A DNA stretch of 64,000 nt, taken from NCBI RefSeq assembly GCF_009914755.1, contig NC_060940.1. One strand, written 5' to 3'. Positions within the stretch are counted from its first letter, which is position 1. Every line of letters starts with the position of its first letter. Origin of the DNA: the human T2T-CHM13v2.0 reference genome, Homo sapiens. The position numbers and the translations under genes are program-made. Under the pieces are notes generated by a model. The model was not told where the DNA came from, did not search any database, and saw only the letters and a list, made by a program, of their open reading frames with translations. Shown here in pieces: positions 48,694-50,423 of the stretch.

Positions 48694-49476
48694 ATCAATG
48701 TACAGATTTAATGCTATTTCTATTAAACTACCAATGTATTCTTTTACAGAATTAGAAAATACCATTCTAAAATTCATATGAAACCAAAAAAAGACCCCAA
48801 ATAGCCAAAGCATTCCTAAGCAAAAAGAACAAAGCTGTAGGAATCACACCACCTAACTTCAAACTACATTACAAGTCTACAGTAACAAAACAGCATAGTA
48901 CTGATATAAAAACAGACACACAGAGGAATGGAACAGAATAGAGAGCCCAGAAATGATACTGCATACCCGCAACCATCTGATCTTTGACAAAGTCGACAAA
49001 AAATAAGCAACGAAGAAAGGACTCTCTATTCAATAAATGGTACTGGAATAACTAGCTAGTCATATGCAGAAGATTGAAACTGGATCCCTTTCCTGTAAGG
49101 AAAGGGTATGACTAGCTAGTTATCCCAGCACCATTTATTGAATAGAGAGTCCTTTCTTCGTTGCTTATTTTTGTCGACTTTGTCAAAGATCAGATGATTG
49201 CGGGTGTGCAGTATCATTTCTGGGCTCTCTATTCTGTTCCATTCCTCTGTGTGTCTGTTTTTATATCAGTACTATGCTCTTTTGTTACTGTAGACTTGTA
49301 ATGTAGTTTGAAGTTAGGTGGTGTGATTCCTGCAGCTTTGTTCTTTTTGCTTAGGAATGCTTTGGCTATTTGGGGTCTTTTTTTGGTTTCATATGAATTT
49401 TAGAATGGTATTTTCTAATTCTGTAAAAGAATACATTGGTAGTTTAATAGAAATAGCATTAAACCTGTACATTGAT
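48694..49476. repeat. Long inverted repeat (arms 48694-49064 and 49107-49476, 42-bp spacer)
   Basis: Hand comparison finds ~8 differences over ~370 bp. Confidence 0.97.
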
Positions 49477-49806
49477 GAGTTCATGTCCTTTGTAGGGACA
49501 TGGATGAAGCTGGAAACCATCATTCTCAGCAAACTATCGCAAGGACAAAAAACCAAACACCGCATGTTCTCACTCATAGGTGGGAATTGAACAATGAGAA
49601 CACATGGACACAGGAAGGGGAACATCACACACTGGGGCCTGTTGTGGGGGTGGGGGGAGGGGGGAGGAATAGCATTGGGAGATATACCTAATGCTAAATG
49701 ACCAGTTAATGGGTGCAGCACACCACCATGGCACATGCATACATATGTAACAAACCTGCACATTGTGCACATGTACCCTAAAACTTAAAGTATAATTTAA
49801 AAAAAA
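49474..49806 (+). mobile_element. Young L1PA (PA2/PA3-like) 3' end
   Basis: gatgagttcatgtcctttgtagggac...ccctaaaacttaaagtataa plus A tail; near-consensus. Confidence 0.96.
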
Positions 49807-50423
49807 GACTTCATTTTTTTTCAACAATTTCATTATTATGCTAAAAAGAGGGAGGGTAAGTAATGTTTTACTTTCCTTTAGTACATGATTAAGATCTATA
49901 TAAAAAAAAATAAACTCAGGATGTTTTAAAGTCTTAAAACCTAAAACCATAAAAACCCTGGAATATAACCTAGAAAATAACATTTGGGACATAGGTCTAG
50001 GCACGGATTTCATGATGAAAATGCCAAAAGCAATTGCAACAAAAACAAAAATGACAAATGTAAGACCTAATTAAACTAAAGAGCTTCTGGACAGTGAAAG
50101 AAACTATCAACAAACAGACACCATAATAATGGGAGAAAATATTTGCCAACTATGCATCTGACAAAGGTCTACTACCCAGAATCTATAACGAACTTAAATC
50201 AACAAGCAAAAAAAAAACCCCATTAAAAAATGGGCAAAGAACATAAACAGACATTTCTAAAAAGAAGATATACAAGTGGCCAAAAAACATGAAAAAATGT
50301 TCATCGCTAATCATCAGAGAAATGCAAATAAAAACCTCAGTGAGATACCATTACAATTAAATATAGGGTAACCAGATATCATGGGGTCTCAGTGATTTGA
50401 AGCAATAAGAAGTAAAAAATAGC

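What the first reader, a model, noticed from the sequence alone, without database searches (positions are those of the whole stretch)
48694..49910. Young L1 insertion fused to a ~370-bp fold-back inverted copy of its own target flank
Seen: bases 49107-49476 are the reverse complement of 48694-49064, with ~8 differences (~98%). The arms are far closer to each other than two independent copies of an old L1 would be, so this is a local copy, not a second L1. The inverted arm joins the 5' end of an L1PA2/3-type 3' fragment through a 3-nt microhomology (gat, 49474-49476). At the apex, ccctttcct / aggaaaggg forms a snap-back, and ~21 nt are missing from one side, leaving a 42-bp asymmetric spacer. 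No TSD is visible; the host L1 resumes at ~49900, about where it stopped. Inference: during target-primed reverse transcription the cDNA 3' end switched to upstream genomic DNA and copied back to the nick. This differs from twin priming, where the inverted piece is L1 RNA. The palindrome may have been stabilised later by a central deletion. It could form a cruciform or a long dsRNA if transcribed.
Basis: partly seen in the sequence, partly recalled or inferred. Interest (0 to 1): 0.85.

Follow-up and report, generated by a model that had tools for sequence, protein, structure and literature searches.

The report
L1 insertion with fold-back flank copy
A truncated L1 retrotransposon landed inside an older L1 and carries, at its front end, a 382-base inverted copy of the DNA just upstream and, at its back end, 93 bases from chromosome 1; this is a rare kind of messy L1 insertion that has already been described, and it has no obvious function here.

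Summary
Bases 49107-49476 are the reverse complement of 48694-49064, with 7 mismatches and one 1-base indel. The best non-local genome copy of this old L1 piece is only 84% identical. The two arms share 26 private substitutions, so the inverted arm is a local copy and not twin priming.

The arm joins a 5'-truncated L1PA 3' end through 3-4 nt of microhomology. The host L1 is collinear across the insert, with about 6-10 nt lost and no target-site duplication (TSD).

That chr1 site has no L1 beside it in this assembly. It is either an orphan 3' transduction or an RNA template switch.

The arms, the chr1 piece and the L1 piece all show about 2% pairwise-equivalent divergence, which fits one event.

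My best reading (about 0.7) is one complex L1-mediated insertion with DNA-templated fold-back synthesis at the 5' junction. This class is in print: 4 of about 1,200 somatic L1 insertions (PMC10191854), plus L1-induced clones and cancers (bioRxiv 10.1101/2024.12.14.628481). The main rival is a later replicative inverted duplication. Ape orthologues, which I could not reach, would decide.

Verdict: a new member of a known kind, of modest interest.

The parts
48400..49094 (+). Left part of the old host L1 (ORF2 region, sense on +). It was read only from 48400, so its true start was not determined. Host collinearity ends at 49094.
   Evidence: In one search the left flank aligns to 10 related L1 copies up to window 49089-49094.
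48694..49064 (+). Left (original) arm of the inverted repeat.
   Evidence: It continues into the host L1 on its left, so it is the original copy.
49065..49085 (+). 21 nt of host L1 that are absent from the inverted copy.
   Evidence: all 10 family relatives carry these columns, so the gap is a loss or skip in the right arm. One search shows no microhomology at its edges.
49086..49106 (.). Apex: a 9-bp stem (49086-49094 / 49098-49106) around the loop gta (49095-49097). The gta is the complement of host tac, which is now missing in direct orientation.
49095..49476 (-). Inverted copy of the upstream flank (382 nt). It is host-L1 sense read on the minus strand.
49473..49476 (+). Microhomology between the arm and L1 at the 5' junction (gat, or tgat).
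   Evidence: 13 of 19 nearest L1 copies read tgat, 5 ggat and 1 tgaa at this L1 position.
49477..49806 (+). 5'-truncated L1PA-type 3' end (49477-49798) with an A8 tract (49799-49806).
   Evidence: 39 other copies are 94-96% identical..
49807..49899 (+). Unique DNA derived from chr1 (G000:C1, about 59062167-59062258, + strand). It is an orphan 3' transduction or an RNA template-switch piece.
   Evidence: only 2 genome matches, self and chr1 at 97%; homology starts right after the A tract and ends at 49899.
49898..49910 (+). Ambiguous 3' junction: at (49898-49899) is shared by the chr1 piece and the host, followed by ata and a 9-A run. This is either the host's own atata plus A-run, or a short mutated poly(A) tail.
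   Evidence: In one search the right-flank alignment starts at window 49900 in 4 of 10 relatives.
49900..50300 (+). The host L1 resumes (read to 50300).

Best explanation
I read this as one complex L1-mediated insertion into an older L1, probably several to roughly 20 million years old. That age is an inference from divergence, using recalled rates.

Proposed sequence of events:
1. A break formed in the host L1 at or beside its T-run on the bottom strand.
2. The bottom-strand 3' end primed reverse transcription of a read-through transcript from a chr1 L1 progenitor that is absent from this assembly. This copied 93 nt of chr1 flank, the A8 tract and 322 nt of L1 3' end.
3. Before the two break ends were sealed, about 400 nt of the upstream flank were copied in inverted orientation by DNA-templated synthesis. 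This copy joins the L1 cDNA through 3-4 nt of microhomology and joins the left flank through 0-1 nt. A 21-nt stretch was skipped.
4. About 6-10 nt of target were lost and no TSD formed.

Shown: the parts, their origins, the junction sequences and the similar divergence of the three parts.

Inferred: that it was one event, that the L1 and chr1 part had an RNA template, and which strand grew. It could have been the cDNA end copying the nicked bottom strand back towards the nick, or the resected reciprocal end being remodelled.

The locus has no evident function. It lies in gene-free DNA and is a 370-bp hairpin-capable repeat.
For: 1. The arm is a local copy. The partner is 98% identical, while the next best of 40 scored genome copies (11,597 first-look candidates) is 84%. 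Of 370 agreeing columns, 26 are private to both arms against at least 8 of 10 relatives.

2. The geometry is the one expected for a 5'-junction fold-back.
- The inverted copy lies between the upstream flank and the L1 5' end.
- Its apex is at the target site.
- In 8 of 10 relatives the left and right flanks map 6-18 bases apart. Where both alignments reach the junction, the lost bases read tacacc.
- The copy contains the complement of host tac, which is now lost in direct orientation.

3. The L1 sense 3' end points at an A-run in the host, which is a T-run on the bottom strand.

4. Divergences are similar.
- Arms: 7 of 370, or 1.9% pairwise. Derived states are split 3 on the right arm, 3 plus one indel on the left, and 1 unresolved.
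- chr1 piece: 2 substitutions and 1 indel in 93 nt, about 2.2%.
- L1 piece: 3 private substitutions in about 322 nt, 0.9% on one lineage.

5. The class is documented.
- PMC10191854, section 11 (read in full): 3 (0.3%) plus 1 (0.1%) somatic L1 insertions carry a short fold-back inverted duplication 5' of the target site, with 52-220 bp of extra DNA synthesis.
- The 2024 version, PMC11702581 (section 7): nine insertions built from two RNAs, and three with extra DNA templated near the integration site.

6. The 2% divergence between the arms argues against a read or assembly fold-back artefact, which would give near-identical arms.
Against: - No outgroup or population data could be reached, so 'one event' rests on geometry, similar divergence and rough prior odds.
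- The divergence counts are small (7, 2 and 3 changes). The L1 count is biased low because the relatives were chosen for similarity to the window.
- There is no TSD, whereas the published inverted-duplication examples are said to keep a TSD-like overlap.
- There is no clear terminal poly(A). If the host atata at 49898-49902 is original, the nick site would not match the usual L1 endonuclease preference (that preference is recalled, not from a call). In that case priming was internal, on 2 nt of microhomology.
- The presumed chr1 progenitor L1 is not there.
- The fold-back is 382 nt, longer than the 52-220 bp reported in PMC10191854.
- The simple snap-back of the reciprocal 3' end proposed cannot by itself template the gta at the apex.
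- The 21-nt skip remains unexplained.
Confidence: 0.7

Rival explanations
1. Two events. First an ordinary truncated L1 insertion (with the chr1 piece and a TSD). Later came an unrelated replicative template-switch event of the FoSTeS/MMBIR type. That event copied about 400 nt of the upstream flank in inverted orientation and, on switching back, deleted the left TSD, a few host bases and perhaps more of the L1 5' end.
For: - Small inverted duplications are a common class of human structural variant in their own right. PMC12350158 (passages) reports 277 outside mobile-element insertions, median 284 bp, most with 1-15 bp of microhomology and an inferred replicative origin.
- The junctions here have 0-1 and 3-4 nt of microhomology.
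- An intact parental strand would naturally supply the tac that survives only in the inverted copy.
- The missing TSD is explained.
Against: - It needs the fold-back to straddle the 5' boundary of one particular L1 insert.
- My rough estimate used counts and recalled L1PA copy numbers. It puts this coincidence about 2.5 to 25 times less likely than a one-step event.
- The divergences of the arms, the chr1 piece and the L1 piece show no age gap, though the power is low.
Confidence: 0.17
2. One DNA-only repair event with no reverse transcription. A break in the host L1 was patched by microhomology-mediated replicative repair. The repair copied first the local flank in inverted orientation and then about 420 bp of chr1 DNA spanning the 3' end of an L1 and its flank.
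For: Every junction shows only 0-4 nt of microhomology. There is no TSD and no clear terminal poly(A), and the nick site may be non-canonical.
Against: - It still needs an L1-filled chr1 allele that this assembly lacks.
- The copied piece would have to straddle an L1 3' end by chance.
- The L1 orientation and its position at a T-run fit target-primed reverse transcription.
- L1 read-through RNA bound by its own protein is a far commoner donor. This last point is established knowledge of 3' transduction, recalled and not from a call.
Confidence: 0.08
3. Twin priming, or a second independent L1 copy in inverted orientation.
For: An inverted L1-family segment sits 5' of a sense L1 3' end, which is the outward look of twin priming.
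Against: - The inverted segment is of the old host family and shares 26 private substitutions with the adjacent flank.
- It is 98% identical to that flank, against at most 84% to other copies.
- It corresponds to an L1 region far from the truncation point (recalled L1 layout).
Confidence: 0.01
4. Assembly or sequencing fold-back artefact.
For: None specific. Fold-back chimeric reads do exist (recalled).
Against: The arms differ at 7 sites plus 1 indel and by a 21-nt gap. The derived states are split between the two arms, as expected for real, aged copies.
Confidence: 0.01

Closest known systems
Short fold-back inversion (inverted duplication) 5' upstream of the L1 target site, 'process C' of Nam et al. 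2023 (PMC10191854, section 11 read in full)
   Same: A sense L1 insert whose 5' end abuts an inverted copy of the immediately upstream flank, with the apex at the target site. The authors attribute it to extra DNA synthesis during resolution of the insertion.
   Different: - Those events are somatic, in colon clones. This one is in the germline reference and is old.
- Their extra synthesis is 52-220 bp. Here it is 382 nt with a 21-nt internal skip.
- Their calls required a poly(A) tail and a TSD. Here there is no TSD and the tail is unclear.
- I did not see their figure.
[quoted passage not shown]
   Same: An inverted duplication of genomic DNA on the reciprocal (5') side of an L1 insertion, with a small apex hairpin and very short microhomology at the inversion junction.
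   Different: - Their model is self-annealing of the resected 3' overhang. That alone cannot template the gta at this apex.
- They report that a TSD-like overlap is kept. Here 6-10 nt are lost.
L1 3' transduction, and two-RNA chimeric insertions made by template switching (PMC11702581, section 7)
   Same: Unique non-L1 DNA follows the L1 A tract in the same orientation.
   Different: - There is no L1 next to the source sequence on chr1 in this assembly.
- I saw no canonical polyadenylation signal just before the end of the piece. The signal motifs are recalled.
Twin priming (Ostertag and Kazazian 2001; recalled, and cited)
   Same: An inverted segment lies 5' of a sense L1 3' end.
   Different: In twin priming the inverted segment is L1 RNA-derived. 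Here it is a copy of the flanking genomic DNA.
Chromosome-scale L1-mediated fold-back inversions in cancer (PMC7058536, passages)
   Same: An L1 insertion sits at a head-to-head junction.
   Different: Those bridge sister chromatids and duplicate megabases. This one is a 382-nt local copy inside an intact chromosome.

Membership tests
L1 insertion with fold-back inverted duplication of the 5' flank | L1-derived sequence in sense orientation, with its 3' end towards the target nick. | tested here: met
   49477-49806 matches L1 3' ends at 94-96% and ends in A8. It faces the host A-run.
L1 insertion with fold-back inverted duplication of the 5' flank | An inverted copy of the immediately upstream flank lies between that flank and the L1 5' end, with the apex at the target site. 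| tested here: met
   The host is collinear across the insert with about 6-10 nt missing.
L1 insertion with fold-back inverted duplication of the 5' flank | The arm and the L1 arose in one event. | not testable with these tools
   No primate or pangenome sequence was available. Similar divergence is compatible but weak.
L1 insertion with fold-back inverted duplication of the 5' flank | Hallmarks of target-primed reverse transcription: a TSD and a terminal poly(A). | tested here: not met
   There is no TSD. The terminal A-run may be the host's own.
Twin priming | The inverted segment derives from the same L1 RNA. | tested here: not met
   The arm shares 26 private substitutions with the host flank. 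It is 98% identical to the flank against at most 84% to other copies.
L1 3' transduction | Unique sequence directly follows the L1 A tract, in the same orientation. | tested here: met
   49807-49899 is 97% identical to chr1, and there are only 2 genome matches.
L1 3' transduction | The source locus has a progenitor L1 immediately upstream. | tested here: not met
   The upstream sequence on chr1 is not L1. None of 29 L1-bearing loci hits the 3,090-bp locus at E <= 1e-10. The nearest L1-like DNA seen lies 14-18 kb upstream. chr1:59052200-59060668 was not examined.
L1 3' transduction | A second poly(A) tail follows the transduced piece, downstream of a polyadenylation signal. | tested here: inconclusive
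   A 9-A run follows after 'at', and it overlaps the host's own A-run. I saw no canonical signal just upstream (motifs recalled).
Endonuclease-independent / non-classical L1 insertion (features recalled) | No TSD, a small target deletion, microhomology at the junctions, and an atypical nick site or missing tail. | tested here: inconclusive
   No TSD, a 6-10 nt loss and microhomology are met. The nick site and the tail are ambiguous.
Replicative (FoSTeS/MMBIR-type) inverted duplication | An inverted local copy with microhomology junctions, arising independently of retrotransposition. | tested here: inconclusive
   The junction features fit. Independence from the L1 could not be tested.

The most novel reading that the evidence does not exclude
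This locus may be a fossil of a single minus-strand synthesis that used four templates in a row:
1. Read-through RNA of a chr1 L1 progenitor that never became fixed.
2. The L1 RNA body.
3. The nicked bottom strand of the target itself, copied back to within a few bases of the nick.
4. The 3' end of the cut top strand.

If so, it would be germline sequence-level evidence that the L1 machinery, or a polymerase taking over from it, can switch from RNA to nearby genomic DNA and run off at the nick. The 3 bases that survive only in the inverted copy would mark where the template ended.
Probability: 0.35. Interest if true: 0.45.

Novelty: new member of a known kind. Interest (0 to 1): 0.3.

Why it matters
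The locus is a fully resolved germline example of a rare, messy outcome of L1 insertion. Until now this outcome has mainly been seen in somatic clones, in cancers and in cells over-expressing L1.

Base-level junctions are informative here. The 3 host bases kept only in the inverted copy, the 0-1 and 3-4 nt microhomologies and the 21-nt skip all constrain models of how the two break ends are processed.

The locus also shows that a piece annotated simply as 'young L1 in old L1' can hide a flank duplication and a transduced fragment from a progenitor that no longer exists.

It has no evident functional consequence. No gene is annotated in the window, and the nearest annotated genes are lncRNAs about 45-60 kb from the locus.

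Tried and rejected
- Twin priming and 'second independent L1' are rejected.
- Assembly artefact is rejected, because the arms have diverged and the derived states are split between them.
- A simple intramolecular snap-back of the left 3' end does not work. It cannot template the gta at the apex, since the matching tac lies beyond the retained end.
- A local antisense RNA as template for the arm is unlikely. The copy ends at the break site, and the 21-nt skip has no intron-like ends.
- A later 'centre-break' deletion of a perfect palindrome has no support. The 21-nt gap is off-centre and the apex is intact.
- The search for a progenitor L1 next to the chr1 source found none. The first region asked for came back cut to 10,000 bases, so chr1:59052200-59060668 was not examined.
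- L1 subfamily assignment was not possible with the tools. I did not build or print any L1 consensus. only counted columns where each copy departs from the majority.
- Three literature queries failed on term format.
- No orthologous primate or pangenome sequence is reachable with these tools.
- Figures and supplements of the cited papers were not seen. They may hold examples closer to this locus.

Full report
**What is there**

The window region 48400-50300 is an old L1, sense on the + strand, interrupted at 49094.

The repeat finder reports two adjoining inverted pairs: 48694-49002/49168-49476 (309 nt, 98%) and 48999-49064/49107-49172 (66 nt, 97%). A gapped alignment merges them into 370 aligned positions with 7 mismatches and one 1-nt indel.

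The 42 nt between the long arms (49065-49106) consist of four parts:
- 21 nt that only the left copy has (49065-49085);
- a 9-bp stem arm (49086-49094);
- a 3-nt loop gta (49095-49097);
- the other stem arm (49098-49106).

Folded as single-stranded DNA, 48694-49476 gives -430.7 kcal/mol against -71.9 +/- 5.5 for 20 shuffles (z = -64.8).

**The arm is a local copy**

I searched the left arm (48694-49098) against the whole assembly. The hits were:
- itself, at 100%;
- the inverted partner, at 98%;
- nothing else above 84% among the 40 candidates scored, out of 11,597 first-look candidates.

I then aligned both arms with 10 family relatives. At 26 of the 370 columns where the arms agree, they carry a base that differs from the one held by at least 8 of the 10 relatives.

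The 7 substitutions that separate the arms polarise as follows:
- 3 derived on the right arm (48706, 48891, 48973);
- 3 derived on the left arm (48964, 49042, 49047; two of these are supported by only 7 of 10 relatives), plus a 1-nt insertion at 48998;
- 1 unresolved (48838).

This is what two real copies ageing independently look like. It rules out a second L1, twin priming and a read fold-back artefact. The 21 nt absent from the right arm are present in all 10 relatives, so the right arm lost or skipped them.

**The junctions**

Left junction. Related copies continue after the left breakpoint with tacacc followed by atata and an A-run. The inverted copy starts with gta, the complement of that tac, which is no longer present in direct orientation. 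The template of the inverted copy therefore reached at least 3 nt beyond today's left breakpoint. The junction has at most 1 nt of microhomology.

L1 5' junction. The arm ends in ..ttgat and the L1 starts at gagttcatg. Among the 19 nearest L1 copies, the four bases before that point read tgat in 13, ggat in 5 and tgaa in 1. The microhomology is therefore 3 or 4 nt.

3' side. L1 ends with A8 at 49799-49806.

49807-49899 is not L1. A genome search with 49809-49900 finds only itself and chr1:59062169-59062258, + strand, at 97%. Reading that locus shows that the match begins right after the A tract, two bases before my query. It ends at 49899 and differs by 2 substitutions and a 1-T indel.

There is no L1 next to it on chr1:
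- The upstream sequence is unrelated.
- None of 29 L1-bearing loci hits the 3,090-bp locus at E <= 1e-10.
- L1-like DNA was seen only 14-18 kb upstream and 6-9 kb downstream.
- The stretch chr1:59052200-59060668 was not examined.

The piece is therefore one of two things. It may be a 3' transduction from a progenitor L1 that is absent from this assembly and was perhaps never fixed. Or it may be a stretch of another RNA on which reverse transcription started before switching to the L1 RNA tail. Two-RNA insertions of this kind are described in PMC11702581 (section 7).

**The 3' junction is ambiguous**

Window 49896-49911 reads ctat-at-A9-t. The chr1 homology ends at 49899. In 4 of 10 relatives the right-flank alignment already starts at 49900, because the family has atata before its A-run.

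There are two readings:
- The host resumes at about 49898, with 2 nt (at) shared with the chr1 piece and no poly(A) tail. About 6 nt (tacacc) are then lost.
- 49900-49910 is a short tail with one substitution, and about 10 nt are lost.

Either way there is no TSD. No word of 6 nt or more is shared in TSD position. One stray 6-mer occurs at 49461/49937.

In 8 of 10 relatives the two flanks map 6-18 bases apart. The two exceptions are L005, which has a local duplication, and L008, whose right alignment starts late.

**Age**

- Arms: 7 of 370, or 1.9% pairwise.
- chr1 piece against its source: 2 of about 92, or 2.2%.
- L1 piece: 3 private substitutions and 1 indel column against the >=75% majority of its 19 nearest copies. 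The relatives themselves have 2-9 private substitutions, mean 5.6.

The L1 figure is about 0.9% on one lineage, roughly 1.9% as a pairwise equivalent. It is biased low because the relatives were picked for similarity to the window.

The three estimates agree, but the counts are small. With recalled neutral rates this corresponds to very roughly 6-20 million years.

No tool assigned a subfamily. The best genome copies are 94-96% identical (40 scored of 1,992 candidates). That looks somewhat older than the youngest L1PA groups.

**How it most likely arose**

The L1 sense 3' end faces a T-run on the bottom strand. The inverted copy lies exactly between the upstream flank and the L1 5' end. Its apex sits at the break, and it retains host bases lying between the two inferred nicks.

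[quoted passage not shown] It was seen in 3 (0.3%) plus 1 (0.1%) somatic L1 insertions and attributed to 52-220 bp of additional DNA synthesis during resolution (PMC10191854, section 11 read in full).

[quoted passage not shown] There it is explained by resection and self-annealing of the break end (bioRxiv 10.1101/2024.12.14.628481, 2026 version, passages).

This fits the retained tac and the 0-1 nt junction. The simple self-annealing model does not by itself explain the gta.

The sequence cannot tell which strand grew, and the 21-nt skip has no microhomology and remains unexplained. I put the single-event reading at about 0.7.

**Rivals**

Later replicative inverted duplication. This class is common on its own: 277 events outside mobile-element insertions, median 284 bp, mostly with microhomology junctions (PMC12350158, passages). 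It would explain the lost TSD and the retained tac. However, it needs the event to straddle this L1's 5' boundary. A rough calculation from the counts, with recalled L1PA copy numbers, makes this about 2.5 to 25 times less likely than one event (confidence 0.17).

DNA-only templated repair. This would copy chr1 DNA across an L1 3' end. It is possible but needs more coincidences (confidence 0.08).

Chromosome-scale L1 fold-backs in cancers (PMC7058536, passages) are a different scale of outcome.

**Verdict**

This is a germline, well-preserved member of a rare but documented class of complex L1 insertions, sitting in gene-free DNA. Orthologous ape loci and the chr1 source site would settle both open points: whether it was one event or two, and whether the chr1 piece is a transduction or a template switch.

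Noticed in passing
window 49807-49899; L002 about 1499-1590 (G000:C1:59062167-59062258): A 93-nt unique piece sits behind the L1 A tract. It derives from chr1, where no L1 lies beside it. Only two copies were found in the genome.
   Followed up: yes
L005 (G000:C9:119008007-119011404), about 1898-1976: This related old L1 carries a local direct duplication of about 77 bp at the same ORF2 position where the window's L1 is broken. The flank sequence repeats after the ttcct motif.
   Followed up: no
L018 (G000:C2:112015589-112018915) and L019 (G000:C2:87274126-87277452): These two L1 3' ends on chr2 have identical scores and identical downstream flanks in opposite orientation. They are most likely copies within a segmental duplication.
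   Followed up: no
L035 2013-5617 (G000:C1, about 59044212-59047816): L1-like DNA lies 14-18 kb upstream of the chr1 source piece. It is too far away to explain a directly abutting transduction. Its orientation and completeness were not examined.
   Followed up: partly
window 49640-49665: The G-rich tract in the L1 3' UTR carries the window's one private indel relative to all 19 nearest copies, an extra G at 49646.
   Followed up: no
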